Part shown: piece after piece, positions 41,443 to 61,282 of the stretch
Layout: each line of letters starts with the position of its first letter
Numbering within the stretch: the first letter of the stretch is position 1
Assembly: GCF_050299635.1 (NCBI RefSeq)
Contig: NZ_JBNKWF010000001.1
Location: 9,485-73,484, forward strand
Direction: 5' to 3'
Length of the DNA stretch: 64,000 nt
From: Altererythrobacter sp.
GTDB lineage: Bacteria; Pseudomonadota; Alphaproteobacteria; Sphingomonadales; Sphingomonadaceae
Translations under genes and position numbers: made by a program
Notes under the pieces: generated by a model
The model's database searches: none
The model's input: only the letters and a program-made list of their open reading frames with translations
What the model was told of the DNA's origin: nothing

Positions 41443-41464
41443 AACCCGTCCCAAGGGGCAGGTT
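41443..41464. promoter_or_regulatory. Palindrome family site C: AACCCGT-CCCAAGGG-GCAGGTT
   Basis: About 190 nt upstream of the degenerate LOV-HTH ATG. It shares 19 contiguous nt with site D. Confidence 0.4.
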
Positions 41465-41536
41465 GCAAAAGCATATCTAATTTTCGAGGGAATCTACCGG
41501 ATTGCCCGACCGCGATGCAGGCTATTGGAATCGGGC

Positions 41537-42781
41537 CTAAAATGCCTCGCCAAGCGATAGATAGAGCGCTTGCGAATCCTTGCCCCAGGCAAGATCGATC
41601 CGTGCATTTATCCGGTACTCAGGTGCAATTTCGTATCGCAATCCGATCCCTGCTGAAGGAAGATGATTGCTATCCCTGAGCTGTCCCAGGCCGCTTGCGA
41701 TACCGCCCGTGCCCGCAAACACGACAGCACCCAATCGACCGGCGATCTTTTGCCGAATCTCTGCCTGGATCGCCCAGGCCGCCCGGTCGCGATAACGCCC
41801 GCCGGAATAGCCGCGCAGATCCGCCGAATCTCCGTATCGGCACAGGCTGTGAAACGGCGCATCGCGCCCTTTCGCGCAAAGCGAAACGCGCATGGCAAGG
41901 ACACTGTCCGGGCCCAGCGGATGATAGGCATTGGCGGCCAGTCGCAGCGAGTAATAGGAAAGATCGCTGCCCAGCGCAGGCGTAGCATGGAGATACTGCC
42001 CTTCCAGCAATACTCCCCTGCTGGGATTGAACTGATTGTCGCGCAGGTCGAACTGAAACAGCGGACCAACCGCAACGATACGGTTGGAAAGTTCGCCTGA
42101 TGAAAGCGGAATGTCCGGCTCCACCTCATCACCGGAAGGCGTGCTGCGGGTCGTGTCGACATCCAGAATATCAAGCTTTCCGCCTACAAACAGGTCCGGC
42201 GCGATTTCCACCAGGCCTTGTAGGTCGAGGTAGAAGCTCTTCTGCCGCAAGCTGATTGAAAGCCCGGCATCGCCCGCCTCTGCCCCGATCCCGTAAAATT
42301 GCACCTCGGTGGAGGAATAGCCCCCCAGAACGAATATCCGCTTGCGATCATTGTCGAGCGACATTCTCTGAAAGGCACCAAGCTCCAGATTACCCTTGTC
42401 GGTGTAGAGCCCACCGATCCCGCTGGTCCAGGGCGCACCCGCTCCCTTTGGCTGGTAGAAGCGGATCAGCCCAAGACCGAGTCCTGTACCCAGGGTCGGA
42501 TCAATCACTGGCAAAGGAATCATCAACCGCTTCGCCGCCCGCGCGGCAAGCTCCGCCTGGCTGGCGACGCTGAAATTTCCCTGGGCGGTCTCGGCCTGTG
42601 GAAGCGGAACGATCGCTTTCTCCGGCCTGTCTCCAGACAGGCTTGTTTCATGTTCGGCCGCTGCAACCTGCCCGCTATTATCTTGAGCCGTTGACGTGTT
42701 TGGCGCCGCCGCAGCCAGGGCCGCGACTATGCAACACGACCCGAACCGGCCACTCCGGGTTCTGCCGGTGCGCACCGCCAC
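41537..42781 (-). CDS. Omp85/BamA-TamA-family outer membrane barrel without obvious POTRA domains
   Basis: Signal-like N-terminus, a surface-antigen (D15)-type barrel pattern and the C-terminal YLSLGEAF. Confidence 0.7.
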   Translation of the reverse strand: MAVRTGRTRSGRFGSCCIVAALAAAAPNTSTAQDNSGQVAAAEHETSLSGDRPEKAIVPLPQAETAQGNFSVASQAELAARAAKRLMIPLPVIDPTLGTGLGLGLIRFYQPKGAGAPWTSGIGGLYTDKGNLELGAFQRMSLDNDRKRIFVLGGYSSTEVQFYGIGAEAGDAGLSISLRQKSFYLDLQGLVEIAPDLFVGGKLDILDVDTTRSTPSGDEVEPDIPLSSGELSNRIVAVGPLFQFDLRDNQFNPSRGVLLEGQYLHATPALGSDLSYYSLRLAANAYHPLGPDSVLAMRVSLCAKGRDAPFHSLCRYGDSADLRGYSGGRYRDRAAWAIQAEIRQKIAGRLGAVVFAGTGGIASGLGQLRDSNHLPSAGIGLRYEIAPEYRINARIDLAWGKDSQALYLSLGEAF

Positions 42782-42784
42782 GGA

Positions 42785-43414
42785 TCAGACCAGCGTCACT
42801 TCGGGGACGAGATCCAGCCGTGCCAGCGCCACCAGGATCGTGTCGATCGCCAGGGCCACCTGCATGAAGATCAGCACGGAGGCCACAATCTTGAGGATCA
42901 ACAACAGGCTGGGCAGGCGCAGTATCTGCGAGTTGTAATACATCACCGCCAGATTCATCGGTACGATCAGCGCCAGAGCGCCGGCCACGTTAAACGGCAT
43001 GTGCGGGTATTCCGATGCCAGCATCATGAAGATGAGGATTGAGGCGATCGTTGGCGGGGTAACGATCAGCTTTGTTGCGACATGTGCGAAGGAGAAATCC
43101 AGCGCACTAATCTCGCTTGGCTTGGCAGGCTGCGGTGGCTTCTTGCCGATCAAGCCATTGAGCGCCGTCAGCAACAGGACCACACCACCCGCCAGCATCA
43201 ATGCTTCGATCGAGACCTGATATTCATAGAGCAGGAGCGGCGCACAGAGCGCCACCGCTGTTACGGTCGCTCCGGAAATGAGCGTCGAGCGGAGCGCCAC
43301 TGCGCGTTTGAATGACTCGTCATAGCCTTCGGTCTCGCTGGCGAAGTACACGATCAGCTTCACTGGCCCCATCAGCGAGAAGAAGATCGTAAAAACGAAA
43401 GTGAAGTCGTCCAT
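42785..43414 (-). CDS. MarC-family (UPF0056) integral membrane protein
   Basis: About six TM helices with an N-terminal FTFVFTIFFSLMGPVKLIVYFA pattern. The start is placed at MDDF; the ORF track extends to 43510. Confidence 0.75.
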   Translation of the reverse strand: MDDFTFVFTIFFSLMGPVKLIVYFASETEGYDESFKRAVALRSTLISGATVTAVALCAPLLLYEYQVSIEALMLAGGVVLLLTALNGLIGKKPPQPAKPSEISALDFSFAHVATKLIVTPPTIASILIFMMLASEYPHMPFNVAGALALIVPMNLAVMYYNSQILRLPSLLLILKIVASVLIFMQVALAIDTILVALARLDLVPEVTLV

Positions 43415-43535
43415 GAATGCCGTGCCCTGTGTTCCTGCGCTCCCTTGCGGCACGGGTGGCATCGGCCGGAGCGGGCCGTCCCGACTGAACCTGGGAGGGG
43501 TTTCGACCATTTACCAAGGTGTCTGCACTCATCCG

Positions 43536-43557
43536 AACCTGCACATTGGGGCAGGTT
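43536..43557. promoter_or_regulatory. Palindrome family site B: AACCTGC-ACATTGGG-GCAGGTT (perfect 7-bp arms)
   Basis: Lies in the divergent intergenic region between marC-like (ATG 43414) and tamA (ATG 43650 or 43608). Confidence 0.5.
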
Positions 43558-43649
43558 GTGGAGCGTGAGGCCAGCGCTCATGATTCGAGACATATTGGCG
43601 AAGTCGCATGGCGCGTGCCGCCTCACGCGGCACGGACGGATTGCACGAA

Positions 43650-45806
43650 ATGTTTCGTTGGCAGAATGCCTTACGCGGCCAGTTCCACCACCTTCTTGCC
43701 CTCGGTACCCTTCCGGCAATCGTATCTCTATGCCCGCTCGCATTTGCCCCATCGGCGTCGGCTCAGACGCTCGACGAACTCGTCCCGCCTGACGCCGCCC
43801 GGGACCCTGAAGGCTGGGTTGAAGACGGGATTGCTGGCGACCAGAGGGCAGAGCCAGATCAACCCGCAGATGAATCGCGCGCGCGCGGTGAGACTGACCT
43901 CCCCTGGCCCGGAGAAGGCGAACTCGACCTACCCCCTCCCCTCCAGCCCGATGAAACGCTCGTATTCGACGATGGCTGGTTGGACGAACAGGGGCCGGAG
44001 AGCGAGCTGGAAATCCTGACGATTGCTGAGGGGTTGGAACTGGACCTGCCCGAAAGCCTTCTCGCCCGACCCGAATGGGACGATATCCTGCGGCGGTTCA
44101 ACTCACTTTCGAATGTCGTCACGCTTTCCTCAGAAAAGGAAAACTTTGCGCAATTGGCGGTAAGAGCCAGCCATGACGAGGAACTGCTCGGCCAGCTCCT
44201 GCGCATTCACGGCTACTACGATGCACGCGTTTCACATTCGCTGGAGGCGCAATCGCTCATTGAAGATGATGCTGCTGCCGAAGTCTGGCCCTCTGTCCGA
44301 TTTCGTATTCTCCCCGGCGACCAATTCCGCTTCGGTTCGATCGATCTCGGTCAACTTGAGCAGACCGGCCAGGACTATCCAGCCCTGCGTGAAGGCTTCG
44401 AGATTGAGCCCGGCGATCCGGTCCTTTCGGATGTTATCGAGCAGGAACGTGCAGATCTGGAAGAGGTGCTTGGTGAAGCCGGCTATCCCTTCGCCGCGAT
44501 CGACGAGCCGCATCTGCTGATCCATTCCGATCGCAGCGAAGCCGATCTGACAATGCAGGTTGAACCGGGAGGCAAATATGTCGTCGGATCGATCGCAAGT
44601 CTCCAGCCCGATTTCCTCTCGTCGCGCCATCTCGCGAGGCTGGCGCGCTTCCAGACCGGCGAACTGGTCAGGCAATCGAGCATGCTCGATTTGCGGCGCG
44701 CCATATTGGCCACCGGGCTCGTCTCCAATGTCGACATCACACCAAAAGAGGCGAACGCCCCTGTTGGCGAAATCCCCGGCGTGGCTGATCTGGAAATCGA
44801 CATGACCGAAGCACCGCTGCGCAGCATAGAGCTGGGCGCGGGCTATGGCACCGACCGGGGCTATCAACTCTCCGGCAGTTGGGAGCACCGCAATCTCTTC
44901 CCACCGGAAGGCATGTTGCGCCTGCACGGAATTCTGGGAACCCGCGAGCAGGAAGCGGGTGTCACCTTCAGGCGTAGCAATCTGGGTGGGCGCGACCGGA
45001 TACTGACCGTTGGCCTCAACGGCGACATCCAGAAACGCAATGCCTACAAGGCCCGGCGAGCGACCTTCACCGCTTCTTTCGAGAAGAAGAGCACAATCCT
45101 CTATCAGAAAGGGTTCGCCTGGGGAGCAGGGATCGAAGCGACGATTTCCGAGGAGGCCGAAAAGACCGCCTCGGGCAAATTGGGCGAGCGCAAGACATAC
45201 AAGGTCGGAGCAATCCCGCTCCATGGACTTTACGATACCACCACCGACCTGCTCGATCCGGTCAGCGGCTTCAAGCTCGCCTTGCAGCTCTCCCCTGAGA
45301 TCTCGCTCGAAAGCGGGAACGCCCCGGCCTATCTTTGGGGGCGGATCGACGCTTCGACCTATTTCAGCATTGGCGAACGATCGATCCTGGCGCTGCGCGG
45401 GGCAATTGGCAGCATCGTTGGGACCGAACTGGACAAGGTCGCCCCATCGCGGAGGATGTATGCCGGGGGTGGCCATTCGGTTCGTGGCTATGGCTATGAA
45501 TCAATTGGGAAAAGCTCTGTTCCAGGCCAGCCAAATGGCGGCAGGTCGCTGGCCGAATTCTCGATCGAGGCACGGATTCAGACATCCATGCTCGATGGCG
45601 CACTGTCCGTGGTGCCATTCATCGATGCCGGGACGGTTGGGCCGGATTCCACGCCAAATTTCAAAGAGATCCGCTACGGTGCAGGGGTAGGCCTGAGGTA
45701 CCAGACCGACATAGGGCCGCTGAGGCTCGATCTTGCCACACCGATCAACCCACGTCCCCAGGATGGCTGGCTGGCGGTCTATGCCTCGCTTGGGCAGGCG
45801 TTCTGA
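43650..45806 (+). CDS. tamA: Translocation and assembly module outer membrane component TamA
   Basis: Signal peptide ending PSASAQ, a POTRA-like N-terminal region and an Omp85 barrel ending SLGQAF. A tamB-like giant gene follows directly (TGATG overlap). Confidence 0.85.
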   Translation: MFRWQNALRGQFHHLLALGTLPAIVSLCPLAFAPSASAQTLDELVPPDAARDPEGWVEDGIAGDQRAEPDQPADESRARGETDLPWPGEGELDLPPPLQPDETLVFDDGWLDEQGPESELEILTIAEGLELDLPESLLARPEWDDILRRFNSLSNVVTLSSEKENFAQLAVRASHDEELLGQLLRIHGYYDARVSHSLEAQSLIEDDAAAEVWPSVRFRILPGDQFRFGSIDLGQLEQTGQDYPALREGFEIEPGDPVLSDVIEQERADLEEVLGEAGYPFAAIDEPHLLIHSDRSEADLTMQVEPGGKYVVGSIASLQPDFLSSRHLARLARFQTGELVRQSSMLDLRRAILATGLVSNVDITPKEANAPVGEIPGVADLEIDMTEAPLRSIELGAGYGTDRGYQLSGSWEHRNLFPPEGMLRLHGILGTREQEAGVTFRRSNLGGRDRILTVGLNGDIQKRNAYKARRATFTASFEKKSTILYQKGFAWGAGIEATISEEAEKTASGKLGERKTYKVGAIPLHGLYDTTTDLLDPVSGFKLALQLSPEISLESGNAPAYLWGRIDASTYFSIGERSILALRGAIGSIVGTELDKVAPSRRMYAGGGHSVRGYGYESIGKSSVPGQPNGGRSLAEFSIEARIQTSMLDGALSVVPFIDAGTVGPDSTPNFKEIRYGAGVGLRYQTDIGPLRLDLATPINPRPQDGWLAVYASLGQAF

Positions 45807-48800
45807 TGGCTGCGCGGGCGCCAGATGAGAACGGGGCAGAGGAGGCCCTCAAAAGAACTCAGGCAGGGTTTTGGCTGCGATGGAGTCTGCGAGCCCTTGC
45901 CGGATTGCTGGCCGCAATCGTCGCATTGGCAATTTTGATCGATACGCCAATCGGCCACCGCGCAGTGGCGAATTACGTCGAAGGTTTGCGCCCACAATCC
46001 GGGCTGCGGATCAAGATAGGGGAGATCACGGGATCGCTCTACGGCAAGTCCGCGTTCCACCGGGTTGCGATCGGCGATCCGCAAGGCGATTTCTTGCATG
46101 TACCAATCGCAGAGCTGGATTGGCGCCCGCTCAGCTGGCTCTATTCGGGGCTCGACATTCGCAGCCTTGCCTTGCGCCATGGCCGATTGCATCGTGTGCC
46201 GGCCTTCGACAGTTCCGCTCCCAGCCAGCTCTCATTGCCCGAATTCGATCTCCGTATCGACCGGCTGGAGATCGATGGCCTAGAGATTGCCAAAGGGATC
46301 GCGGGTGACATGCGCAGAATCGATTTTCTCGTCAGCGGCGCCTTGCGTGACGATGCGGTGATGCTTGCGGCAAAGGGGCAACTCGGCGGGACTGACAGGC
46401 TGGCCCTCTCGCTCGACGCCGAACCGGAACAGGACCGTTTCGACATCCATCTTGATTATGTCGCTCCGGCAGGCGGGCTGCTTGCGGGGCTCACAGGCGC
46501 AGAAGAGGAATGGATTGCCCGCGCCAACGGCGATGGCAATTGGGCAAGCTGGAACGGCTCGATCGAAATGGTCCGGTCAGGGTCGCAGTTCGCCGAAGCA
46601 GCCCTCACAAATCGCGCTGGCCTGTTCGATCTGAAAGGAACGATCCGCCCTGCACCATTGCTCGAGGGGCTGGCAAAGCGGGTGGCAGGTGATGCACCGG
46701 CCATCTCCGCACGCGGACGCTTCGACGATCGTATCTACACAGGACTGCTCTCGTTCAAGTCGGACGCCGCCGATATGCAAGGCGAAGGCTCCATCGATCT
46801 GGCCGGAGATCGCTTCGAGCGGTTCGCCGTCAACCTCGCATTGCTCGACCCGGCACTGTTTGGCCCGGCCCTCACGCTTGAAGGGGCACGCCTCGACGCG
46901 ACGCTGAATGGCCCATTCGAAGCGCTCGACATCGATCATCGCCTCACCGTCGACCGGCTGGCTGCGAATTCGATCGAAGCGCAAAATCTGGCACAGAAGG
47001 GAATTGCACGGCCTGGCAAGCAAGGCTGGCAAGTCCCGCTGGATCTGAGCATCGGAAAAATCCGGTCCGGCACTGAAGCCCGAGGCGCGGAACTTTCGGC
47101 AATGCGAATGAATGGCGTGCTGGTTCTCGCCGTGAATGACGGGGACGCGCAGCCCTGGTCGCTCAAGGCGAATGTCAAAGGAATTGCCGGTCGTCTCGAA
47201 GACACATTGATGCAAGGCATCGCTGGACCGCAGATCACATTTTCCGGAAAGCTTAGCGGCGGCCAGTATGGGCCTTGGCGACTGGCCGATGGCGCGTTTA
47301 CCAGCTCTCGCCTGGCGCTTGCGATCGACGCGCAACTGGATGACGGCGATGCCAGCTTCACCGCTAGCGGCAGGCATCGTGAATATGGGAAGTTCTCGTT
47401 TCAGGGATCCATGGCGAACAAGAATCTTGCAGCCACCGCCAGGTTCGAACGCCCCTACGCACCAGCAGGTATCGAAGACGCCCGCATTTCGCTGAAATCG
47501 ATCCCAGGCGGATATGCGCTGGAGGCGGCGAGCGATTCAATGCTGGGCCCTGTCGAAGGCGAGGCCCGGCTGCTGACGGCAAGGGGGGGCCAGCCGCGGC
47601 TGCATGTGGACCGGCTAAACGTCTGGGACACAAGGGTCAGCGGAGAAGTTCGGTTCGATGACGGCGTGTTACTGGGCGAACTCGATATGGCCGGCGGCGG
47701 CCTCTCCGGCCAGGTCGCGTTTTCGCAGGGAAACGGGAAAAACCAGGCCTATTCCGCCGACCTGACAATGAGCGACTTGCAGTTTGGCGGCGACGGGGCA
47801 CTTTCGATCACGCGCGGAACGCTCGCGGCAAAGGGACAATTGATGGGCGAGCGCAGCACGCTCGACGCACTGCTGGATGCACAGGGCGTAGGCTATGGCG
47901 AGCTCTACTTCGGTAGGATGGACGCAAGGGCAGTATTGGCGGAAGGGCGCGGCACGGCCAGCGCCAATCTCGCGGGATATGGCGGCAGCAAGTCCGCGCT
48001 GCAGATCAGGGCTGAACTTACGCCCGGACAAGCGCTGATCGCTGCCCGCGGCCGGTATGACGGCGACAAAATCACTATGCCCCGTCGCGCGCGGCTTTTG
48101 TGGAATGGTGACGGGAGCTGGAGCCTGCGTGAGGCGCAGCTCGATTTCAGCGATGGCTATTTGCAGGTGGAAGCTGGAGCCGAAGCCAGTGGCACCACGC
48201 ACGGCACACTCAGCCTGTCAGGCATGCCGATCGGGATTCTCGATCTGGGTTTGAGGCAGGAAGGCTTGAATGGAACCGCCTCGGGCAAGATCGAATGGTC
48301 TTCGCACGGAGCGGAACCGTTAGAGGGAACCATGCGCCTCGATGTGAAGCGCTTCAGCCGATCCGGCCTTATCCTTACGTCTCAGCCGGTGGACCTGGCG
48401 CTCAATGCCAAACTCACGGCGAGCGGGTTGCAAGCCAAGGCCAATGCAAGGAGTGAAGGCGCGCAATTGGGCCAGATGGCGCTCCGCGTCGACGATCTGC
48501 CTGATGCAGGCACTCTCATCGAGCGGATCGCGCGCGGAAGCCTGTCCGGCTCCGTGAACTATTCAGGCCCCGCCTCGGCGATCTGGCGGCTCGCCGCTAT
48601 CGACGCATTCGACTTCACAGGCCCGATATCGATAGATGCCCGAATGGGGGGCACGCTAGACGGTCCACAGATCGACGGCAGCCTGCGGGGTGACGGGCTG
48701 CGCATGCAAAGTACAATCACCGGTACAGACCTGCGGAATATGGCCGTGCGCGGCTCGTTTACAGGCTCGAGGCTGAATCTGACGCGTTTCAGCGGAACCG

Positions 48801-50747: not shown

Positions 50748-50776
50748 AAAAGACCTCCAAAATATCTAAAATCTCT

Positions 50777-50795: not shown

Positions 50796-50935
50796 TCTAT
50801 ACGCCTGTCGGAATTGTCCGTTTTTATTTACAAAACGTCATTTTTACATTCCCGTTGGAAAAAAGCGCTGACCCTTACAACAATCCTTTTGGCCGACGCT
50901 TGAAGATGAGGCTTGCACCAAGGCAAACCTCATTC

Positions 50936-53099: not shown

Positions 53100-53238
53100 T
53101 CGCAACAGCTTGCATTTTGAGATGGAAATCAAGAACTTCCTCCGGCGTATCGGGCCAAGTTCTGTCTGCTCGAACACGGGTGGAATGCGTATCTCCCACT
53201 CCGGAGCAGCCAGGGTGCTGGACGAAGACCGATCGGAT

Positions 53239-53258
53239 TATCAACGGGTCGATTGATA
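53239..53258. promoter_or_regulatory. Inverted repeat TATCAA-CGGGTCGA-TTGATA in a divergent promoter region
   Basis: Perfect 6-bp arms with an 8-nt spacer, between the porin-like gene (ATG 53099) and the barrel gene (ATG 53426). Confidence 0.3.
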
Positions 53259-53425
53259 GTGGAGGAGGGTGAGCTCCATCCTAACCGGTTCGCCCAGCAT
53301 GGAAACAGTCACAGCTAAGCCAGAGTGGAACAATATGCCCATTGGGGTAGGTAACCGCCCCCTCATCGCAATGATATCCGAAGCTTGGCTCCAAATTGGC
53401 GGGCCCGCAGCGGAAGGAATGCATC

Positions 53426-54259: not shown

Positions 54260-55125
54260 AACAACAAGCTCACGCCGAACTTGAGCTGGCGATCGGCCGC
54301 TCCCTTCGGGGTCGAGACATTCCAGTAATAGCCCAGGCTCACATCCAGCGATGTGCCGCTCTGCTCGTTCAGCAGGATCGTCCTGCCGCCCGTCAGCCCA
54401 AGCGGAACCGACCAGCCAGTGGTGTCTTTCGGCGCGCTCCAGTTATAGGCGACCGTATTGTTGTATCCGCCGTACCAGCCTCCGCCGAATCCATAGATCA
54501 GGATTGGCTGCATGGTGGTGACACTGAAACCATCCTGCCCCCACAGGTGCCCGATCACCCCGCCCCATGACAGATCTCCCGATTGTCCGAATACGACCGC
54601 GGTTGGCCCTGCACCCATGCTTGGCCCTTCCAGGGCGGGCTTGGAATGCGTCGGAAGCGAGACCTGCAGCCCGAAGCCATAGGCCAGTTTCCCACCGGTG
54701 GGCGAATAGATCATCTGCACGATCGTATCGCCGATGCCCCATTCCATCGTAGTGTTCGGCGTCGGGTCTGGCAGGATCGGCGGCACAGCGGCATCAGGCT
54801 GCACACCCTGCACCGGAATCACGCCGCGCATGATCAAGTTGGCGCCATCAAGCGGAACAGAAAAGACCGGCTGGATCTGGAAATTGTAGCTATCCTGATC
54901 GTTGGTGCCGGTCTTATAGGCGATCGTGTTGTCGGTCATGATCGCAGCGATGTCCCCCAGCGGATTGGCCGCCTTGCGCGCCGCCTGGCAGGCCGCATCG
55001 CAATTGGGATCCACCGCTTCAGGCTCCTGCGCGATCTCATCCTGTGCAAAGGCAATGTTGGCTGGGGCTGCTAGTGCCAATGCGACAATGAATCCCGCCA
55101 GCGACCGGTTGATGTTTCGGTTCAT
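54256..55125 (-). CDS. Hypothetical outer membrane beta-barrel (transporter-like) protein
   Basis: Signal peptide MNRNINRSLAGFIVALALAAPANIAFAQD and a C-terminal GVSLLF. Last gene of a three-gene minus-strand operon. Confidence 0.55.
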   Translation of the reverse strand: MNRNINRSLAGFIVALALAAPANIAFAQDEIAQEPEAVDPNCDAACQAARKAANPLGDIAAIMTDNTIAYKTGTNDQDSYNFQIQPVFSVPLDGANLIMRGVIPVQGVQPDAAVPPILPDPTPNTTMEWGIGDTIVQMIYSPTGGKLAYGFGLQVSLPTHSKPALEGPSMGAGPTAVVFGQSGDLSWGGVIGHLWGQDGFSVTTMQPILIYGFGGGWYGGYNNTVAYNWSAPKDTTGWSVPLGLTGGRTILLNEQSGTSLDVSLGYYWNVSTPKGAADRQLKFGVSLLF

Positions 55126-55132
55126 CGCAGGA

Positions 55133-55315
55133 TCAATCGCGTCCGAACAGGTCGACGACCGCGCCAGCAGTTGCGCCCACCGCAGCCCCCGTCCGCGCAT
55201 CGCCCGCCAGGGCGCCGATACCCGCGCCGACCACGCTTCCGCCCACTGTGGCGCAGGCCGCTAGCGGCAGCAGCACCGCTGCGCAGGCCAGCACGATTTT
55301 TCCGTTACGTGTCAT
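55133..55315 (-). CDS. Glycine-zipper small lipoprotein
   Basis: Lipobox LAAC followed by a Gly-zipper (GGSVVGAGIGALAGDARTGAAVGATAGAV). Its ATG overlaps the upstream stop (ATGA). Confidence 0.6.
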   Translation of the reverse strand: MTRNGKIVLACAAVLLPLAACATVGGSVVGAGIGALAGDARTGAAVGATAGAVVDLFGRD

Positions 55316-55695
55316 TGCTTCTTCTCCACGTAGATCAGCCAGAGAACATCCAGCACCGTGTCGCCCGTCTTGTCGGGATGGGCGGCGAAATAGGCGTCCA
55401 CCGCGTCGACCATGCCTTCCAGCGTGGCCCCCTTCAGGGCGGCATACATTTCTGGAACCGCCGATTGCTTGTCGTTCGGCGGATTGGCGCTGGCGGCCTG
55501 GACTTCATGTTCCGCATTTACCGTGTTGGCGATGCCCATGGTGTAGGCGAGTTTCTCGTTCTCGGTGGATTGCTTCCACACGGTGCCCGTCACATAGGAA
55601 CTGGATGCCGATGCGACGCTGGCACTCAAGAGAATCCCAAGCGCTGCAGCCACGCCCAAAAACCGTCTCGATCTCATCTCAGCACCTCTTGTCAT
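55312..55695 (-). CDS. Exported hypothetical protein
   Basis: Signal peptide RRFLGVAAALGILLSASVASA and a helical mature part. No recognised motif. The start could be 55677. Confidence 0.45.
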   Translation of the reverse strand: MTRGAEMRSRRFLGVAAALGILLSASVASASSSYVTGTVWKQSTENEKLAYTMGIANTVNAEHEVQAASANPPNDKQSAVPEMYAALKGATLEGMVDAVDAYFAAHPDKTGDTVLDVLWLIYVEKKQ

Positions 55696-55817: not shown

Positions 55818-55839
55818 AACCTGTATCAATGGACAGGTT
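55818..55839. promoter_or_regulatory. Palindrome family site A: AACCTGT-ATCAATGG-ACAGGTT (perfect lux-box-type dyad)
   Basis: ACCTGT-N8-ACAGGT has the same arms and spacing as the V. fischeri lux box. It lies in the divergent region about 125 nt upstream of the canonical LOV-HTH ATG and about 133 nt upstream of the minus-strand operon ATG. Confidence 0.5.
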
Positions 55840-55878: not shown

Positions 55879-55953
55879 CTCAAGCCGGGATTGGACAAGC
55901 TGTCCTTTGGGGCATAATCTTTCCCTGGAAGATGCACTTGGGGGCATTCGTAT

Positions 55954-56544
55954 ATGACTTTAACCAGGCTCGAATCCCTGGATGATGTCGCATTCATCGC
56001 GACCGATCCGCGCTTGCCGGACAATCCGATCGTCGATTGCAATGACAGTTTTCTGAAACTGACAGGCTATGAGCGCGACGAGGTTATCGGCCATAACTGC
56101 CGCTTGCTGGCGGGGCCCGGAACCGATCCGGAAAAACGGCGGCAACTGCGCGAAGCGATCGCTGATGAGCAGCCGATCATGGTCAAGCTGCTCAATTACA
56201 AGAAGGACGGCACACCCTTCATGAACGCCGTGATGGTCGTGCCGATCTATGGCGACGACCGCGAGTTGATCGGCTATCTCGGCTCGCAGCTCGACGTAAG
56301 CTCTTCAAGCGACATTTCCCTGGAAGAACGCACAGCCAAGGCACGCAAGGCTATGGCCAGGCTCAGCCCGCGCCAGGCTCAGGTTCTCAACGGTCTGGTG
56401 GATGGCAAACTCATCAAACAACTCGCCTATGACCTCGACTTGAGCGAACGGACCATCAAGATGCACCGCGCCGCCATGCTGAAATCGATCGGCGCGTCGA
56501 ACAATGCAGAAGCGATCCGGATAGCAGTCGAAGCGGGGCTTTAG
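55954..56544 (+). CDS. LOV-HTH blue-light-regulated transcription factor (EL222-like)
   Basis: Canonical LOV core GHNCRLLAGPGTD with NYKKDGTPFMNAV and LGSQLDV. C-terminal LuxR-type HTH LSPRQAQVLNGLVDGKLIKQLAYDLDLSERTIKMHRAAMLKSIG ... RIAVEAGL. Confidence 0.9.
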   Translation: MTLTRLESLDDVAFIATDPRLPDNPIVDCNDSFLKLTGYERDEVIGHNCRLLAGPGTDPEKRRQLREAIADEQPIMVKLLNYKKDGTPFMNAVMVVPIYGDDRELIGYLGSQLDVSSSSDISLEERTAKARKAMARLSPRQAQVLNGLVDGKLIKQLAYDLDLSERTIKMHRAAMLKSIGASNNAEAIRIAVEAGL

Positions 56545-56664
56545 CCTGCCCCTACGGGAGCTTGCTCCTGGGACATGCCCCCACGTCCATGTTGCTCCAG
56601 CCTGCAAGAGCGGGCTGATACGGCGAGCATGGCACGAGGCGAGAGCATAATCGGGCGGGCTACA

Positions 56665-57945
56665 ATGCGGCCGGGGCCCCGTGCCGCGCGACAGGCTGCT
56701 CTGCTCCTCTCGCTGGCCGCTCTCTCCCCATGCGGCGCATTTGCCCAGGATTCCGGTGAAGTCACGACCCCCTCCAGCGATACGGAAGACAAACCCAGTG
56801 CGGAGGAGGTGCGAGAAAACGTGGTGTCTGCCGGGGAAGACCCGCTGCAGAAATGGCATGCCGAAACGCAAACTGACGAGATCGATGAACGAGTGGGAAG
56901 GCCGCTCAAGGTACTGCTCTATGGTAGCGCGCGGCTTGACTACACCATCGCCAATTCCACCGGAAAGCTGGGCGATGCGGGATCCAGGTTCGGAGCATTT
57001 GGCGAATGGGCGCCAAGCAATAGATTGTTGCTGTTCGCTCGCGCCGAGGCAGGTCTCGACCTGATCGAAGGTTTCAGCGATTTGTCCAAGAGCGGCTCGA
57101 AGAAGAGCGAAGACGACGATTCCAAGGTATTCGACCGCTTGCTCTATGGCGGCATTGAGACGCGGCGCTTCCTGCTCGTATTCGGCAAGAACTGGTCTAC
57201 CTACTACCAGGTCTCCGGTTTCACCGACGAGTTCGACAGCACCGGGGGCGATGCATCGGGGACCTACAATGCCGGCACCGATGGCGGCCCAACAGGGACC
57301 GGACGCGCCGACCTTGCGCTGCAGGCGCATATCTCGCTCAAAGGACTGGCCGAAAGGATTGGCGCGCAATCGCTTCACCTTAACCTGCAGGCACAAGATG
57401 GCCGCCCGATCCCCGGCTTTGATGATGCAAAATACGGCGTTTCAATCGGAACGAGCGGGATCATCCGCTTTTCGAAGAATGTCGAATTGGGCCTCGCCTA
57501 TAATTTCGCGGAAATTCAGCTGGCCGATCGCCCTGCCCTCGCGGCGGTCGGCATCAATGGCAATGCGCATGCGGCCCTACTTGGCGTGCGCTGGATCGAC
57601 AATGACTGGTATCTTGCGACGACAGTCGCGCGGCTGGTCAATCACGAAGCGACGGACGGATTGAACTATTTCGATGGCTGGGGCTGGGAGGTATATGCGC
57701 GCCGCCAGATCACAACCCGATTCTCGATTGTTGGCGGCTGGAACTGGTTGAAGCCCGACGCAGATGAGATCCAGGCGAACGACTATCGCCAGCGCTATGG
57801 TGTGATCGGCGCGCGCTATGCGCTGAGCCGGGAGAACGGGCTGGAACGCTATGCCTATGTCGAATGGCGGATCGACGACAGCCGCGAGGAGAATGGCGAT
57901 AAGGTCGGCAACAGCATCGTGCTGGGCCTGCGCATGGACCTATAG
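56665..57945 (+). CDS. Gram-negative porin-family outer membrane protein
   Basis: Signal peptide (AALLLSLAALSPCGAFAQD) and a porin-like pattern (YGSARLDY ... GSRFGAFGEW ... LYGGIETRRFLLVFGKNWSTYY). The ORF track starts at 56575. Confidence 0.7.
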   Translation: MRPGPRAARQAALLLSLAALSPCGAFAQDSGEVTTPSSDTEDKPSAEEVRENVVSAGEDPLQKWHAETQTDEIDERVGRPLKVLLYGSARLDYTIANSTGKLGDAGSRFGAFGEWAPSNRLLLFARAEAGLDLIEGFSDLSKSGSKKSEDDDSKVFDRLLYGGIETRRFLLVFGKNWSTYYQVSGFTDEFDSTGGDASGTYNAGTDGGPTGTGRADLALQAHISLKGLAERIGAQSLHLNLQAQDGRPIPGFDDAKYGVSIGTSGIIRFSKNVELGLAYNFAEIQLADRPALAAVGINGNAHAALLGVRWIDNDWYLATTVARLVNHEATDGLNYFDGWGWEVYARRQITTRFSIVGGWNWLKPDADEIQANDYRQRYGVIGARYALSRENGLERYAYVEWRIDDSREENGDKVGNSIVLGLRMDL

Positions 57946-58013
57946 ACGACCGCTCGCTTGCTGCGGATCGGAACGCCTGAGCGCCCCGACACCGCAGCTA
58001 GCGGTAAGTCCTC

Positions 58014-59219
58014 CTAATAGCCGTAATCCCCGAAATCATCGAAGCCGTCGAAGCTTTCGGCGTCAAAATCGAAACCCAGATCCATGGTCCCAAAATCCTC
58101 ACCGAAATCGTCCATCGCATAGTCTTCAAACGACTCGATTTCGGCCTCCGAACCCATATCGAACGGCACTTCCTCGAAATTGTGCTCGACCATGTCCTGA
58201 ATATCGAGCCCGTCCTGGGTCTGTACATCGTCCCAGCCAAGATCGAGCTCGTCGGTCATGGCGACCAGATCACCGTCATTGATGTCGAATTCCTGATCGA
58301 TCAGGTAGTCGTCTGCTGCGATCAGATCGGCATCGGAGATATCCAGAGTGCCCATATCGAGCTCGAGCGCGACGTAGTCGATATCGATCGCCACATCGAC
58401 ATATCCCCAATCATAGGGCACCGCATCAATCCAGCCATCCCAGATGATGATGTTGATGTCGATCCAGCCTGGGCACCATGCTCCCCACGGCCCCCACCAC
58501 CAGTGCCAGCCCCACATCCAGCTCGACATGATCCGCGAAGCGATGAAGCCATCGACAAAGCCCGATGACGTATAGCCCGCCCGGCGGATCTTCTCTGCTT
58601 CCCGGCGAATCTTCTTGATGCCTTCCTGCATCTTCTTGTTGTTCTTCGCCGCGTTGCGCTCGACCTGGTCGAGCTTCGCCATTATCTCCTTTTGCTGCTT
58701 CTTGAGCTCGTCGAGCTGGCGGCGTTCCTCCTTGGTCAGCTCGCCGCCTTTTCTGAGGCGAGCGGCCTCCTTGCTGTAATTCTGGTCGAGAGTAGTCACG
58801 AGACCGGTCAGCGTCTGCATCGCCTTGGTCAGCGCGGCATTGTTTGCACCGCTCATGGTGATCGCCACATCGGCCTGGATCACCTGGCCATGCGCCGAGG
58901 CCAATCCGGTGAAGAAGGTATCGTCCTTCAGCGTCATGCCCGTCTGCGCCTTGTCGAGCGCTTCGTTCAGCTCCTTCATCGCCTTCCAGAATGGCTTGGC
59001 TTCAGATTTGGAACTGTCGAGTTGCGGCGCGGCGCGCGCGGCTCTTACAACCGCACCAACAGCGCGCTGGGCCCTGGTGATGAGCTCAGCAGCGTCCATC
59101 TGGCCGGGCTGGCTCGTAGCCACAGCAGCCATTTGCTGGGGCTGGCTTTGCGCCGAGCAGGCTACCGGAACCAAGCCAATACAGCTTGCCAGCAGGACGG
59201 CTTTGAATGTGTGTTTCAT
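58014..59219 (-). CDS. Exported hypothetical protein: helical/coiled-coil N-half, Trp-cluster segment, extremely acidic C-terminal third
   Basis: Signal peptide and a Lys/Glu-rich coiled region. A WMWGWHWWWGPWGAWCPGW segment is followed by about 150 aa dominated by Asp/Glu/Phe/Gly and ending FDDFGDYGY. Confidence 0.6.
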   Translation of the reverse strand: MKHTFKAVLLASCIGLVPVACSAQSQPQQMAAVATSQPGQMDAAELITRAQRAVGAVVRAARAAPQLDSSKSEAKPFWKAMKELNEALDKAQTGMTLKDDTFFTGLASAHGQVIQADVAITMSGANNAALTKAMQTLTGLVTTLDQNYSKEAARLRKGGELTKEERRQLDELKKQQKEIMAKLDQVERNAAKNNKKMQEGIKKIRREAEKIRRAGYTSSGFVDGFIASRIMSSWMWGWHWWWGPWGAWCPGWIDINIIIWDGWIDAVPYDWGYVDVAIDIDYVALELDMGTLDISDADLIAADDYLIDQEFDINDGDLVAMTDELDLGWDDVQTQDGLDIQDMVEHNFEEVPFDMGSEAEIESFEDYAMDDFGEDFGTMDLGFDFDAESFDGFDDFGDYGY

Positions 59220-59312
59220 GTCGACTTGCTCCCCGGAAGAACGCGATGAATTTCAAGGGCGCAACACCGGTCACGCCATGCATAAAGGCTCCGCATTTTG
59301 GGTGTGGGCTTC

Positions 59313-59334
59313 AACCCGTCCCAAGGGGCAAGTC
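59313..59334. promoter_or_regulatory. Palindrome family site D: AACCCGT-CCCAAGGG-GCAAGTC
   Basis: About 104 nt upstream of the acidic-protein ATG. Its left 19 nt (with the 5' C) are identical to site C. Confidence 0.35.
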
Positions 59335-59362
59335 CGTGCCGGCAACTACTCCCGGCACGGAC
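59332..59362 (-). terminator. Hairpin after the amidohydrolase gene
   Basis: GTCCGTGCCGG-N9-CCGGCACGGAC, a perfect 11-bp stem 28 nt downstream of the stop. There is no clear U tract. Confidence 0.5.
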
Positions 59363-59389
59363 CCTCGCTGACGGTAGATCGGGAGTGGA

Positions 59390-61177
59390 TCAGATCCCGT
59401 CGCGATGACGAACCTTGCCATCCATGATCGTGAAGAGGATCTTCACTTGATCGATCTTGTGCGGGTCGACCTCGAACAGATTTTGATCGAGCACGACCAT
59501 GTCGGCCATCTTGCCGACCTCCAGAGAACCGATCTTGTCGTCCAAACCTCTGCCCTTCGCCGCGCCCAGGGTTTGCGCGTAGATCGCCATGTCGAGAGGA
59601 ACACGTGCCTCCTCGCCCCCAAGCGGCGGAACATTGTCGCGACCCGGCAGTTGACGGGTCACAGCGGTGCGGATGGAAAGTAGGGGCTTGTATTCAGAAA
59701 GATATCCCGACGCCGGCCAGTCTGAGCCGAGGGATATGTTTCCGCCGGCCTCCCTGATTTTCTTCATCGGGAACATGGCCTGGACGCGGGCAGCGCCAAA
59801 GCGCTCGGTGGTAATGCTCTGGAGGAGTGGATCAAAACTCATCCAGAAACCGGTCGTGTCATAGGTCACCCCGACCTTGGCGAGGCGGGGAATATCCTGC
59901 GGGCTGACCAGGACGGCATGCGAGACGGCGAAATGGCTTTCCGTCGCGGGATTGGCCTTCCTTGCCGCCTCGGTTGCGTCAATCAACTTGCGTACGGCGA
60001 GATCGCCAAAGCAATGACAGGTGACATTCAGCCCCTTGGCGGCGGCTTCGGCTACAACCTTGTTGAGGATGTCATAGGGAATGATCGGATCGGGCTTGGC
60101 ATCCGGCTTGTCGGCATAGGGCTCGGTCAGGAGCGCACTCCACTTTTCGTCGCCGCCGTCGAGATTGATCTTGAGGGTGTCAACTTCAACCAGTTCGGAT
60201 TTGTACTTTTCCTTCAGCTTGAGGAGCGGCGCTATCGGATCGATCTTGGGATCGTTCCAGTAATAGGATCCCTGCAGGCGGATCGGAAGCCCGCCCTCCT
60301 TTTCGCGGTTCAGAACCCATTCGAAGGCTTCTTCGTTGGTCACGCCCTGGACGCCGTAATCGAATACCGTGGTGATCCCTGCGGCAGAGAATTTGGGCAG
60401 CCAATCCTTGACGCCTTCCAGGACGGTGTCGGCGTTGAACGTCCTCAGCTTGGTCAGCACCTGCAATTGTGCGGGCACTTCGATGATGAAACCGGTTGGA
60501 TTTCCATCCGCATCCTTATCGAAGAACGAATAGCCGGGAACAGTCTCGGGCGTATCCTTGTCGACCCCGGCAATCTCCAGTGCCTTGGAATTTACAAAGG
60601 CGCTATGGCCGTCGACCGTCCAGAGATAGATTGGACGTTCGGATTCGACCTCGTCGAACATGGCCTTTGTCGGCAAACCATCCGAGAAGGTGCTGAGGCG
60701 CACGCCGTAGCCCTCAATAACCTCGAGATCGGGATTGTCCTTCACATACTGGCGAAGCTTTTCGAACACCTCGTCCTTGTCGTCGGTTTGCAGGTCCACA
60801 CCTTGGGCTACGATGCCCCCGGCAATCATATGAAAATGCCCTTCGACAAAGCCGGGGACCACCATCTTGCCTTCGAGGTCAACGACATTGGTCGCAATGC
60901 CGATCTGGTCCTTGAGGCCTTGGGCATCGCCGACATAAGTGATCTTGTTGTCCTCGACCACGATCGCCGAAGCCCAGGGCTGCTTCGGATTCATCGTATA
61001 GATCTTGCCGTTGATCAGTGCCCAGTCCGAGCGCGGATTGGCGCGGTTGGAGATGCCCTTATCAAACGACAGTGCGTTTCCATTCGGCGTGGTAGGCGCG
61101 GTAGTCTGCGCGAGCACCATCTGTGAGGCAGCGGCGATCGAAACCGCCGCGAATGGTGCCAGGAACTTGCTGTACAT
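59390..61177 (-). CDS. Exported amidohydrolase-family (Amidohydro_3-like) metal-dependent hydrolase
   Basis: Signal peptide and the HxH metal motif (GFVEGHFHMIAGG). 595 aa TIM-barrel-type hydrolase pattern (HCFGD, SDWP). Confidence 0.8.
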   Translation of the reverse strand: MYSKFLAPFAAVSIAAASQMVLAQTTAPTTPNGNALSFDKGISNRANPRSDWALINGKIYTMNPKQPWASAIVVEDNKITYVGDAQGLKDQIGIATNVVDLEGKMVVPGFVEGHFHMIAGGIVAQGVDLQTDDKDEVFEKLRQYVKDNPDLEVIEGYGVRLSTFSDGLPTKAMFDEVESERPIYLWTVDGHSAFVNSKALEIAGVDKDTPETVPGYSFFDKDADGNPTGFIIEVPAQLQVLTKLRTFNADTVLEGVKDWLPKFSAAGITTVFDYGVQGVTNEEAFEWVLNREKEGGLPIRLQGSYYWNDPKIDPIAPLLKLKEKYKSELVEVDTLKINLDGGDEKWSALLTEPYADKPDAKPDPIIPYDILNKVVAEAAAKGLNVTCHCFGDLAVRKLIDATEAARKANPATESHFAVSHAVLVSPQDIPRLAKVGVTYDTTGFWMSFDPLLQSITTERFGAARVQAMFPMKKIREAGGNISLGSDWPASGYLSEYKPLLSIRTAVTRQLPGRDNVPPLGGEEARVPLDMAIYAQTLGAAKGRGLDDKIGSLEVGKMADMVVLDQNLFEVDPHKIDQVKILFTIMDGKVRHRDGI

Positions 61178-61260
61178 GTGAACTCCCTCGATCAGGATAC
61201 CGGGCCGATTGATCCGGCAAATGCTGAGGAGCTAGGCTCCCACCCGGAGTAGGCACGGAC

Positions 61261-61282
61261 AACCTGCCCATGCGGGCATGTT
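61261..61282. promoter_or_regulatory. Palindrome family site E: AACCTGCCC-ATGC-GGGCATGTT (8 of 9 arm positions complementary)
   Basis: About 94 nt upstream of the amidohydrolase ATG (61177). Confidence 0.45.

What the first reader, a model, noticed from the sequence alone, without database searches (positions are those of the whole stretch)
41443..61282. Family of 22-bp lux-box-like palindromes in six promoter-type regions around the two LOV-LuxR-HTH genes
I found six related 22-mers, all intergenic. A is 55818 AACCTGT-ATCAATGG-ACAGGTT, with perfect arms. B is 43536 AACCTGC-ACATTGGG-GCAGGTT, with perfect arms. E is 61261 AACCTGC-CCATGCGG-GCATGTT. C is 41443 AACCCGT-CCCAAGGG-GCAGGTT. D is 59313 AACCCGT-CCCAAGGG-GCAAGTC. 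F is 50936 AACCTGC-CCAAACGG-GTATATT. Positions 1-4 (AACC), 6 (G), 14-15 (GG), 18 (A) and 21 (T) are invariant. In C-F the dyad extends to CC/GG, giving AACCTGCCC-N4-GGGCAGGTT. A weaker look-alike, AGCCTGC-AAGAGCGG-GCTGATA, sits at 56599 upstream of the porin gene. The arms and spacing (ACCTG-N10-CAGGT) match the classical V. fischeri lux box ACCTGTAGGATCGTACAGGT, which LuxR-type HTH dimers bind. The window encodes no AHL-type LuxR. It does encode two LOV + LuxR-type HTH proteins, and sites A and C lie upstream of them. Sites A, B and F lie in divergent promoter regions with no gene 3' end nearby, so they cannot be terminators. The flanked genes are mostly envelope-related: marC/Omp85-like, tamAB, small OMPs, the glycine-zipper operon, the acidic exported protein and an exported amidohydrolase. 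My hypothesis is a previously undescribed light-responsive (LOV-HTH-controlled) envelope regulon that uses a lux-box-type operator.
Basis: partly seen in the sequence, partly recalled or inferred. Interest (0 to 1): 0.8.

Follow-up and report, generated by a model that had tools for sequence, protein, structure and literature searches.

The report
Operator boxes of a blue-light regulator
A 22-bp palindrome sits in every promoter region of a 20-kb cluster of cell-envelope genes in an Altererythrobacter genome, and it is most likely the DNA docking site of a blue-light-sensing transcription factor related to the optogenetic tool EL222, so it points to a native light regulon for this protein family.

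Summary
All six 22-mers are at the stated coordinates. A scoring matrix adds a seventh strong box at 53332 and weaker ones at 41344, 41390, 55897, 55929 and 56572. Every box is intergenic. All 8 promoter-bearing gaps between 41.2 and 61.4 kb carry one; the 3 convergent gaps carry none.

They are not terminators, REP elements or chance. The best reading is that they are operators of the EL222-family LOV-HTH protein encoded at 55954-56544:
- The same palindrome lies 31-50 nt upstream of LOV-HTH homologues in unrelated metagenome contigs: 45% of loci against 0.6% of background segments.
- In those contigs, further boxes flank carotenoid, photolyase-related (DPRP), fasciclin, SDR and outer-membrane genes.
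- The only sphingomonad hit of an unbiased genome scan lies 49 nt upstream of a photolyase gene.
- EL222's published consensus, RGNCY-WW-RGNCY, fits concentrically, though imperfectly.

- The second "LOV" protein (40631-41263) has lost the photoactive cysteine.
- The look-alike at 56599 does not score.
- The envelope part of the regulon was not found at tamA in two reference genomes.

No binding or light response has been measured. I rate it a new variant of a known kind, of moderate-to-high interest.

The parts
55954..56544 (+). LOV-HTH2: EL222-family blue-light photoreceptor and transcription factor (LOV domain plus GerE/LuxR-type HTH). It is the proposed binder of the boxes.
   Evidence: Pfam PAS_9 and GerE. 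GHNCRLL motif with the adduct cysteine, and GSQ. Full-length match to EL222 structures 8a5r and 3p7n, E=2e-51.
40631..41263 (-). LOV-HTH1: a paralogue with a degenerate LOV-like PAS domain (NWQFL, LCY, GSH) and a nearly identical recognition helix. The likely start is the ATG at 41245. It is a possible light-independent partner or competitor on the same boxes.
   Evidence: Pfam PAS_9 and GerE. Alignment A1. It is the only NWQ variant among 240 retrieved homologues.
41443..41464 (.). Box C, AACCCGTCCCAAGGGGCAGGTT. It lies upstream of LOV-HTH1 and 73 nt 3' of the Omp85-like gene.
41344..41411 (.). Two weak boxes (41344-41365 and 41390-41411) in the LOV-HTH1 upstream region.
   Evidence: Family matrix scores 11.5 and 13.1.
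43536..43557 (.). Box B, AACCTGCACATTGGGGCAGGTT, in the marC / tamA divergent promoter gap.
   Evidence: gene map
50936..50957 (.). Box F, AACCTGCCCAAACGGGTATATT, in the OMP beta-barrel / DUF3313 divergent gap.
   Evidence: genes
53332..53353 (.). Box G (new), AATATGCCCATTGGGGTAGGTA, in the OprB / OMP beta-barrel divergent gap.
   Evidence: Found by a matrix that was not trained on it; score 20.4. Genes.
55818..55839 (.). Box A, AACCTGTATCAATGGACAGGTT, in the divergent gap between the small exported-protein operon and LOV-HTH2.
   Evidence: 15/20 identical to the lux box
55897..55918 (.). Box a2, AAGCTGTCCTTTGGGGCATAAT, centred 46.5 nt before the LOV-HTH2 ATG. It is the positional equivalent of the autoregulatory box conserved in homologues. 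A still weaker box lies at 55929-55950.
56572..56593 (.). Box w, GACATGCCCCCACGTCCATGTT, between the LOV-HTH2 stop codon and the 426-aa exported protein. Homologue loci have a box at the same relative place.
59313..59334 (.). Box D, AACCCGTCCCAAGGGGCAAGTC, upstream of the 401-aa lipoprotein-like gene. It abuts a GC-rich hairpin 3' of the amidohydrolase gene.
61261..61282 (.). Box E, AACCTGCCCATGCGGGCATGTT, upstream of the exported amidohydrolase gene.
41537..43510 (-). Candidate target operon: marC and an Omp85-like gene that lacks a POTRA domain.
   Evidence: Pfam MarC and Omp85.
43608..49825 (+). Candidate target operon: tamA-tamB. NCBI places the tamA start at 43650.
   Evidence: Pfam Omp85/POTRA and TamB
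50103..54259 (.). Candidate targets: OMP beta-barrel 50103-50747 (-), DUF3313 51076-51789 (+), OprB porin 51852-53132 (-), OMP beta-barrel 53426-54259 (+).
54256..55677 (-). Candidate target operon of three exported proteins of unknown function (121, 60 and 289 aa). The 60-aa product is a glycine-rich lipoprotein.
   Evidence: Gene calls. Signal peptides read from the translations. No Pfam hit.
56665..61177 (.). Candidate targets: 426-aa exported protein (+), 401-aa lipoprotein-like protein 58014-59219 (-), exported amidohydrolase 59390-61177 (-).

Best explanation
The 22-bp palindromes have the consensus AACCTGCCC-N4-GGGCAGGTT, with a conserved core TGnCC-N4-GGnCA. I read them as operators for dimers of the EL222-family LOV-HTH protein encoded among them, LOV-HTH2 at 55954-56544.

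The mechanism is inferred from what is established for EL222. In the dark the LOV domain holds the HTH inactive. Blue light forms the cysteine-flavin adduct, frees the HTH, and drives dimerisation and binding to the palindrome.

In this genome the boxes sit in all eight promoter-bearing gaps of a 20-kb block. That block encodes TamAB, an Omp85-like protein, MarC, porins and small outer-membrane proteins, DUF3313, several exported proteins of unknown function, an exported amidohydrolase, and the two regulator genes. The block would therefore be one light-controlled envelope regulon with feedback onto the regulators.

Boxes with one A/T-rich arm (a2 = ...CATAAT, F = ...TATATT, G = AATATG..., and AACATG... 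upstream of homologues) probably overlap a -10 element. There the protein would act by occlusion, giving autorepression. Symmetric boxes further upstream may act as LuxR-type activator sites. The sign of regulation is not established.

The cysteine-less paralogue LOV-HTH1 keeps the same recognition helix. It probably binds the same boxes independently of light, or forms heterodimers.

Shown here: the boxes, their restriction to promoter gaps, their conservation upstream of homologues, their association with light-response genes, and the family membership of LOV-HTH2. Inferred: who binds, the light dependence, and the direction of regulation.
For: 1. The boxes are specific and tied to promoters.
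- There are 7 strong and about 5 weak boxes, all intergenic.
- All 8 promoter-bearing gaps have one; the 3 convergent gaps have none.

2. The box is conserved upstream of the regulator gene.
- In 74 metagenome loci encoding 50-57% identical LOV-HTH homologues with no other shared synteny, 45% have a box scoring at least 10 in the 150 nt upstream of the gene. The figure for 3784 background segments is 0.6%.
- The best-scoring boxes cluster 31-50 nt before the start codon.
- There are 31 distinct sequences, with the invariant pattern AACATGnCC-N4-GGGCA.
- The closest homologues (60% identity) have a box centred at -54.5.

3. Other boxes in those loci lie in gaps flanked by light-response genes.
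- A crtI-like desaturase divergent from an IspH-polyprenyl synthase fusion, in 3 loci.
- A photolyase-related DPRP gene, with a photolyase ORF running up to the other side of that box.
- Fasciclin genes in two clades, an SDR gene, and an outer-membrane beta-barrel gene.

4. There is unbiased support. The only sphingomonad hit of a genome-collection scan for the perfect consensus lies 49 nt upstream of a DNA photolyase gene.

5. The box links to the characterised family member.
- LOV-HTH2 matches EL222 over its full length, E=2e-51, with a conserved ERT(V/I)KMHR recognition helix.
- EL222's consensus RGNCY-WW-RGNCY (PMC10521638, PMC4428443) fits positions 6-17 of the boxes at 5-8 of 10 positions, against a random mean of 4.0. 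The best register is position 6 for seven of nine boxes.
- The reverse complement of the SELEX site C120 scores above the 99.9th percentile of a null distribution on the family matrix. It is 15/20 identical to one homologue's autoregulatory box.

6. Published transcriptomics fit. In Sphingomonas glacialis, a fasciclin/NAD(P)-binding operon and carotenoid genes next to an EL222-like gene are induced by light (PMC9897461).

7. The window holds only three LuxR-type HTH proteins: the two PAS/LOV-HTH proteins and one response regulator with a different recognition helix.
Against: - There is no experimental binding or expression data for this organism.
- The strong window boxes match EL222's published consensus only partly. 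Positions 7 and 16 differ, and C120 scores -9.5 on the window-only matrix.
- Upstream of EL222 itself there is no such box.
- The envelope targets are not conserved. The window's envelope genes are absent from the homologue loci. tamA in two reference Erythrobacteraceae genomes has no box, and the two nearest TamA homologues have only half-site-like matches.
- The rest of the source genome could not be scanned, so another LuxR-type regulator encoded elsewhere cannot be excluded.
- The recognition helix is too conserved to allow a test of protein/site covariation.
Confidence: 0.75

Rival explanations
1. The boxes are operators of a different LuxR-type regulator encoded elsewhere. Candidates are an AHL-responsive LuxR solo or pair, or the NarL-type response regulator at 17209-17850. 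On this view the LOV-HTH genes are simply members of that regulator's regulon.
For: The arms ACCTG-N10-CAGGT are those of the lux box; site A is 15/20 identical to it. The strong boxes fit EL222's consensus only partly. The rest of the genome is unseen. A GerE-type response regulator is present in the window.
Against: The box is conserved directly upstream of LOV-HTH homologues in contigs that share no other synteny. It accompanies light-response genes rather than quorum-sensing genes. No AHL-binding LuxR is encoded in the window, and the response regulator's recognition helix (TTVKAHVSAILQKL) differs.
Confidence: 0.12
2. The palindromes act as RNA or DNA hairpins: transcription terminators, RNA-stability elements or REP-like repeats.
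For: The 22-mers fold into hairpins of -5.5 to -9.4 kcal/mol. Boxes C, D and E each also lie 3' of a minus-strand gene. In other phyla the perfect 22-mer is the stem of intrinsic terminators, flanked by an A-run and a T-run.
Against: No window box has a T-run, and the terminator scan flagged none of the seven strong boxes. Boxes A, B, F and G lie in divergent gaps with no 3' end nearby, while the three convergent gaps have none. In the homologues the arms are conserved as sequence and do not covary: position 7 with 16, and position 4 with 19, are often unpaired. There is no Rfam match.
Confidence: 0.04
3. The motif is a promoter for an alternative (ECF-type) sigma factor, with an AAC -35 element and a GTT-like -10 element, rather than an operator.
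For: AAC at the left end and GTT at the right end, about 15 nt apart, loosely recall the alphaproteobacterial GGAAC-N16-17-CGTT promoter (from my own knowledge). The envelope gene content would suit an envelope-stress sigma factor.
Against: GG does not precede AAC, and the spacing is too short. The motif is a true dyad that serves genes on both strands. The conserved core in homologues is the inner TGnCC-N4-GGnCA, not the outer ends. No sigma or anti-sigma gene was noted among the proteins scanned in the block.
Confidence: 0.03

Closest known systems
EL222 (Erythrobacter litoralis LOV-HTH) and its operator, RGNCY-WW-RGNCY, including the SELEX site C120
   Same: LOV-HTH2 has the same two-domain architecture, matches EL222 over its full length (E=2e-51), keeps the adduct cysteine and has a conserved recognition helix. 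The operator is a dyad on the same centre. The consensus fits positions 6-17, and C120 resembles the homologues' autoregulatory boxes at 15 of 20 positions.
   Different: LOV-HTH2 belongs to a sister clade of about 196 residues that is roughly 50% identical to EL222. Its operator is longer (22 bp), has inner half-sites TGCCC/GGGCA separated by 4 bp, and has lux-box-like outer arms AACCTG/CAGGTT. Positions 7 and 16 disagree with RGNCY. EL222's own locus has exact consensus sites 3' of the gene, not upstream.
The lux box and las box, operators of AHL-dependent LuxR-family activators
   Same: Both are roughly 20-bp inverted repeats of the form ACCTG-N10-CAGGT bound by a dimeric GerE/LuxR-type HTH. 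Site A is 15/20 identical to the V. fischeri lux box. EL222 can functionally replace LuxR at a luxI promoter when the box is swapped (PMC5001607).
   Different: The sensor domain is a LOV photoreceptor, not an AHL-binding domain. No AHL-type LuxR is encoded in the window. The gene context is light-related and envelope-related, not quorum sensing.
The LOV-HTH-linked, light-induced locus of Sphingomonas glacialis AAP5 (xanthorhodopsin, NAD(P)-binding/fasciclin operon, carotenoid genes)
   Same: An EL222-like gene sits next to genes induced by light. I find fasciclin, SDR and carotenoid genes next to boxes in homologue loci.
   Different: That study defined no operator, and its regulator is closer to EL222 (66% identity). 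The window has no rhodopsin, carotenoid or photolyase genes next to the boxes; it has outer-membrane biogenesis and porin genes instead.

Membership tests
EL222-family LOV-HTH photoreceptor transcription factor (LOV-HTH2) | LOV core with the GXNCRFLQ-type motif, including the adduct-forming cysteine and the conserved glutamine | tested here: met
   GHNCRLLAG and GSQ are present. The motif definition is from PMC4428443.
EL222-family LOV-HTH photoreceptor transcription factor (LOV-HTH2) | C-terminal GerE/LuxR-type HTH, and full-length homology to EL222 | tested here: met
   Pfam GerE, 2.9e-14. phmmer against 8a5r/3p7n gives E=2e-51 over residues 10-196.
EL222-family LOV-HTH photoreceptor transcription factor (LOV-HTH2) | Flavin binding, photocycle, and light-dependent dimerisation and DNA binding | not testable with these tools
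   This needs purified protein, spectroscopy and EMSA in light versus dark.
EL222-family LOV-HTH photoreceptor transcription factor (LOV-HTH1) | GXNCRFLQ motif with the adduct cysteine | tested here: not met
   GRNWQFL, plus LNY>LCY and GSQ>GSH. It is the only 'WQ' among 240 homologues. The HTH is intact.
EL222 operator (two RGNCY motifs separated by two A/T base pairs) | A match to RGNCYWWRGNCY | tested here: inconclusive
   5-8 of 10 specified positions match at box positions 6-17. The best register is concentric with the palindrome, but no window box matches exactly. The reverse complement of C120 scores in the top 0.1% on the family matrix, but scores -9.5 on the window-only matrix.
Autoregulated transcription-factor operator (comparative-genomics criterion) | The motif is conserved upstream of orthologous regulator genes in divergent genomes | tested here: met
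   45% of 74 loci against 0.6% of background segments at a score of 10 or more. The best-scoring boxes cluster 31-50 nt before the start codon, with 31 distinct sequences.
Lux box (AHL-LuxR operator) | A 20-bp dyad ACCTG-N10-CAGGT | tested here: met
   Boxes A and B match exactly, C and E with 1 mismatch. Box A is 15/20 identical to the lux box.
Lux box (AHL-LuxR operator) | A cognate regulator with an AHL-binding (Autoind_bind) domain | tested here: not met
   The window has only three LuxR-type HTH proteins: two PAS/LOV proteins and one receiver-domain protein. The rest of the genome was not available.
Lux box (AHL-LuxR operator) | The box is centred about 42 nt upstream of the transcription start | not testable with these tools
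   No transcription start data exist. The E. coli-type promoter scan was uninformative.
Intrinsic terminator or REP-like element | A hairpin followed by a T-run, or enrichment at gene 3' ends | tested here: not met
   The boxes have no T-run and the terminator scan flagged none of the seven strong boxes. The convergent gaps have none. The true terminator versions in other phyla do carry A-runs and T-runs.

The most novel reading that the evidence does not exclude
A blue-light photoreceptor directly controls outer-membrane biogenesis and composition (TamAB, an Omp85-like protein, MarC, porins and small outer-membrane proteins). It does so through a two-regulator switch. The photoactive LOV-HTH2 and a cysteine-less 'pseudo-LOV' paralogue share one lux-box-like operator, and the blind paralogue sets the dark state or forms heterodimers. 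This would be a native light-to-envelope circuit. It would also supply a natural operator/regulator pair orthogonal to EL222/C120.
Probability: 0.3. Interest if true: 0.75.

Novelty: new variant of a known kind. Interest (0 to 1): 0.6.

Why it matters
EL222 is one of the most widely used optogenetic transcription factors. Even so, I found no paper in the searched library that defines what its family does in its native hosts or which natural operators it uses.

This finding gives three things:
- A conserved natural operator for a large sister clade. More than 2000 homologues scored E<=1e-20.
- A testable core regulon of photolyase, carotenoid, fasciclin, SDR and outer-membrane genes.
- In this genome, an unexpected extension to outer-membrane assembly genes, together with a light-blind paralogue.

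It also suggests new operator/regulator pairs for optogenetics.

Tried and rejected
1. Scan of the genome collection for the perfect consensus. No LOV-HTH gene lay nearby. Only the Novosphingobium hit was informative.

2. Synteny test. None of the window's envelope genes occurs near LOV-HTH homologues.

3. Conservation upstream of tamA. Reference Erythrobacteraceae have no box; the two nearest homologues have only half-site-like matches.

4. A box upstream of EL222 itself. There is none, because the gene follows a GGDEF-EAL gene after 47 nt. Exact consensus sites lie 3' of the gene instead.

5. Covariation between the recognition helix and the box. The helix is too conserved to test this.

6. 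E. coli-type promoter scan. It was uninformative for this organism.

7. Original papers. Rivera-Cancel 2012, Nash 2011 and Zoltowski 2013 are not held, so the natural ChIP peaks of EL222 could not be compared, apart from 'peak B' as quoted in PMC10521638. Peak B scores poorly.

8. ECF-promoter and PpsR (TGT-N12-ACA) readings. I rejected both on spacing and symmetry.

Full report
**Source and gene map**

The window is from an Altererythrobacter sp. draft genome, GCA_050305155.1, contig JBNLEU010000132.1. Its GC content is 60.2%. Pfam scans and the assembly's own gene calls give this map for 40.6-62.4 kb:

| Coordinates | Strand | Feature |
|---|---|---|
| 40631-41263 | - | LOV-HTH1 |
| 41537-42781 | - | Omp85-like |
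| 42785-43510 | - | MarC |
| 43608 (or 43650)-45806 | + | TamA |
| 45806-49825 | + | TamB |
| 50103-50747 | - | outer-membrane beta-barrel protein |
| 51076-51789 | + | DUF3313 |
| 51852-53132 | - | OprB porin |
| 53426-54259 | + | outer-membrane beta-barrel protein |
| 54256-55677 | - | three exported proteins of unknown function |
| 55954-56544 | + | LOV-HTH2 |
| 56665-57945 | + | 426-aa exported protein of unknown function |
| 58014-59219 | - | 401-aa lipoprotein-like protein |
| 59390-61177 | - | exported amidohydrolase |
| 61396-62385 | - | AraC-type regulator |

**The observation**

The idealised palindrome AACCTGCCC-N4-GGGCAGGTT with up to 3 mismatches is a fairer test: it hits 4 times against 0.03 expected.

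A symmetrised matrix built from the six sites picks out an untrained seventh strong box at 53332, in the OprB/OMP divergent gap. It also finds weaker boxes at 55897 and 56572. A matrix enlarged with homologue sites adds 41344, 41390 and 55929.

Between 40.6 and 62.4 kb there are 11 real intergenic gaps, plus two of under 10 nt inside operons; together they total 2252 nt, 10% of the DNA. The eight gaps that must contain a promoter each have a box. The three convergent gaps have none. No box occurs in the other 40 kb, except a weak coding hit at 10260 inside a Crp/FNR gene. None occurs in the 2.5 kb of contig beyond the window.

**Not hairpin elements**

- The boxes lack T-runs, and the terminator scan flagged none of the seven strong boxes.
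- There is no Rfam match.
- The perfect 22-mer does occur in many phyla, but there it is plainly a bidirectional intrinsic terminator flanked by an A-run and a T-run. That makes a useful contrast.
- In the homologues' boxes the arms are conserved as sequence and do not covary.

**Who binds**

LOV-HTH2 is a full-length relative of EL222 (E=2e-51). It has the NCR motif, the conserved glutamine and an ERTIKMHR recognition helix.

I fetched 80 metagenome loci that encode 50-57% identical homologues. They share no synteny with the window's envelope genes. Even so, the window-derived matrix finds a box scoring at least 10 in the 150 nt upstream of the homologue in 45% of 74 loci, against 0.6% of 3784 background segments. 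The best-scoring boxes cluster 31-50 nt before the start codon. Most of the remaining loci show a recognisable weaker version.

The 31 distinct sequences give the invariant pattern AACATGnCC-N4-GGGCA. The window's own equivalent is box a2 at 55897, centred at -46.5. The two closest homologues (60% identity) have a box at -54.5. Conservation of a palindrome upstream of an HTH regulator gene across unrelated contexts is the standard signature of that regulator's own operator.

**What else carries the box**

In the homologue loci, further boxes lie in these places:
- Between a crtI-like desaturase gene and a divergent IspH-polyprenyl synthase fusion gene, in three loci.
- Upstream of a photolyase-related DPRP gene, with a photolyase ORF running up to the other side of the box.
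- Next to fasciclin genes, in two clades.
- Upstream of an SDR gene.
- Upstream of an outer-membrane beta-barrel gene immediately 3' of the regulator gene.

Photolyase, GTP cyclohydrolase I and SDR genes are also recurrent neighbours of the homologues.

Independently, the single sphingomonad hit of the unbiased consensus scan is in a Novosphingobium MAG. It has no T-run and lies 49 nt upstream of a DNA photolyase gene.

Published transcriptomics in Sphingomonas glacialis show light induction of a fasciclin/NAD(P)-binding operon and of carotenoid genes next to an EL222-like gene. The authors proposed that gene as the regulator (PMC9897461). The box is therefore the mark of a light regulon.

**Relation to EL222's known sites**

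EL222 binds two RGNCY motifs separated by two A/T base pairs. C120 is its optimised site (PMC10521638, PMC4428443).

- That 12-mer fits positions 6-17 of the boxes at 5-8 of 10 positions, against a random mean of 4.0. The best register is position 6 for seven of the nine boxes tested.
- The reverse complement of C120 is 15/20 identical to one homologue's autoregulatory box. It scores in the top 0.1% on the family matrix, but not on the window-only matrix.
- In E. litoralis no box precedes EL222. Two exact consensus sites lie just 3' of the gene, and the first of them aligns in register with the 22-mer.

The two clades therefore use related but distinct dyads. EL222's reads CATGGnCC-AA-GGnCCATG. 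This clade's reads AAC(C/A)TGnCC-N4-GGnCA(G/T)GTT, and its outer arms coincide with the lux box (15/20 for box A).

**Mechanism**

My best-supported reading is that light-activated LOV-HTH2 dimers occupy the boxes.

Several boxes have one A/T-rich arm that looks like a -10 hexamer: CATAAT in a2, TATATT in F, AATATG in G. In many homologues a TTGCAT or TTGCGG hexamer lies 17-18 nt before CAACAT. This suggests promoter occlusion, and so autorepression, at those sites. Symmetric upstream boxes could act as LuxR-type activator sites, as EL222 does at an engineered luxI promoter (PMC5001607). The sign of regulation is inference only.

**The second regulator**

LOV-HTH1 is not a normal LOV protein. 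It has NWQFL in place of NCRFL, LCY in place of LNY and GSH in place of GSQ, a combination unique among 240 retrieved homologues. Its recognition helix is nearly identical to that of LOV-HTH2. It is probably a light-blind partner or competitor on the same boxes.

**Limits**

- The envelope content of the regulon appears lineage-specific. tamA in two reference Erythrobacteraceae genomes has no box, and the two nearest TamA homologues show only half-site-like matches.
- The rest of the source genome could not be scanned.
- A regulator encoded elsewhere cannot be formally excluded, and nothing has been measured.

**Verdict**

The feature is real and non-random. It is a new variant of a known kind: EL222-family operators and light regulons. 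I found no paper in the searched library that describes this operator or an envelope regulon for the family.

Noticed in passing
window 40631-41263 (-): LOV-HTH1 has a degenerate flavin pocket: GRNWQFL for GXNCRFL, LCY for LNY and GSH for GSQ.
   Followed up: partly
window 55856-55878: A perfect palindrome with a 9-bp stem, CAATCGGCA-agcaa-TGCCGATTG, lies between box A and box a2 upstream of LOV-HTH2. It could be a second operator or an RNA hairpin.
   Followed up: no
window 59335-59359: An 8-bp GC-rich hairpin, CGTGCCGG-N9-CCGGCACG, directly abuts box D, 3' of the amidohydrolase gene. It is probably that gene's terminator stem, although it has no clear T-run.
   Followed up: no
L020, L027, L011, L024, L005 and many other loci: The perfect 22-mer AACCTGCCC-N4-GGGCAGGTT recurs in Streptococcus, Cupriavidus, Rhizobiaceae, Planctomycetes and Bacteroidota as an intrinsic terminator flanked by an A-run and a T-run. 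This is a convergent hairpin, unrelated to the operator.
   Followed up: partly
L202 10726-10737 and 10759-10770 (E. litoralis CP000157): Two exact matches to EL222's RGNCYWWRGNCY consensus lie 33 bp apart just 3' of the EL222 gene, in a gap between convergent genes. A similar AAGGTCCA half-site follows EL222 orthologues in Citromicrobium (L210) and Sphingomicrobium flavum (L211). Why the sites sit downstream of the gene is unexplained.
   Followed up: partly
L147 6698-8575 (-); also L197 2787-4658: A single ORF fuses IspH (LytB) to a polyprenyl (GGPP-type) synthase. It is divergent from a crtI-like gene, with a box between them, next to a LOV-HTH gene.
   Followed up: no
L043 2404-2425 (Novosphingobium MAG DASTGC010000143.1): A perfect box, AACCTGCCCCTTGGGGCAGGTT, lies 49 nt upstream of a DNA photolyase gene (2475-3857).
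   Followed up: yes
L175 about 10500-10950: One homologue locus encodes a second LOV-HTH paralogue about 4.5 kb downstream of the first. Paralogue pairs are therefore not unique to the window.
   Followed up: no
window 41443-41460 and 59313-59330: Boxes C and D share an identical 18-nt stretch, AACCCGTCCCAAGGGGCA, although their flanks are unrelated.
   Followed up: no
window 9875-10606 (-) and 17209-17850 (-): The box-free part of the window encodes a Crp/FNR-type regulator and a receiver-domain plus GerE response regulator. The weak matrix hit at 10260 lies inside the Crp/FNR gene.
   Followed up: partly
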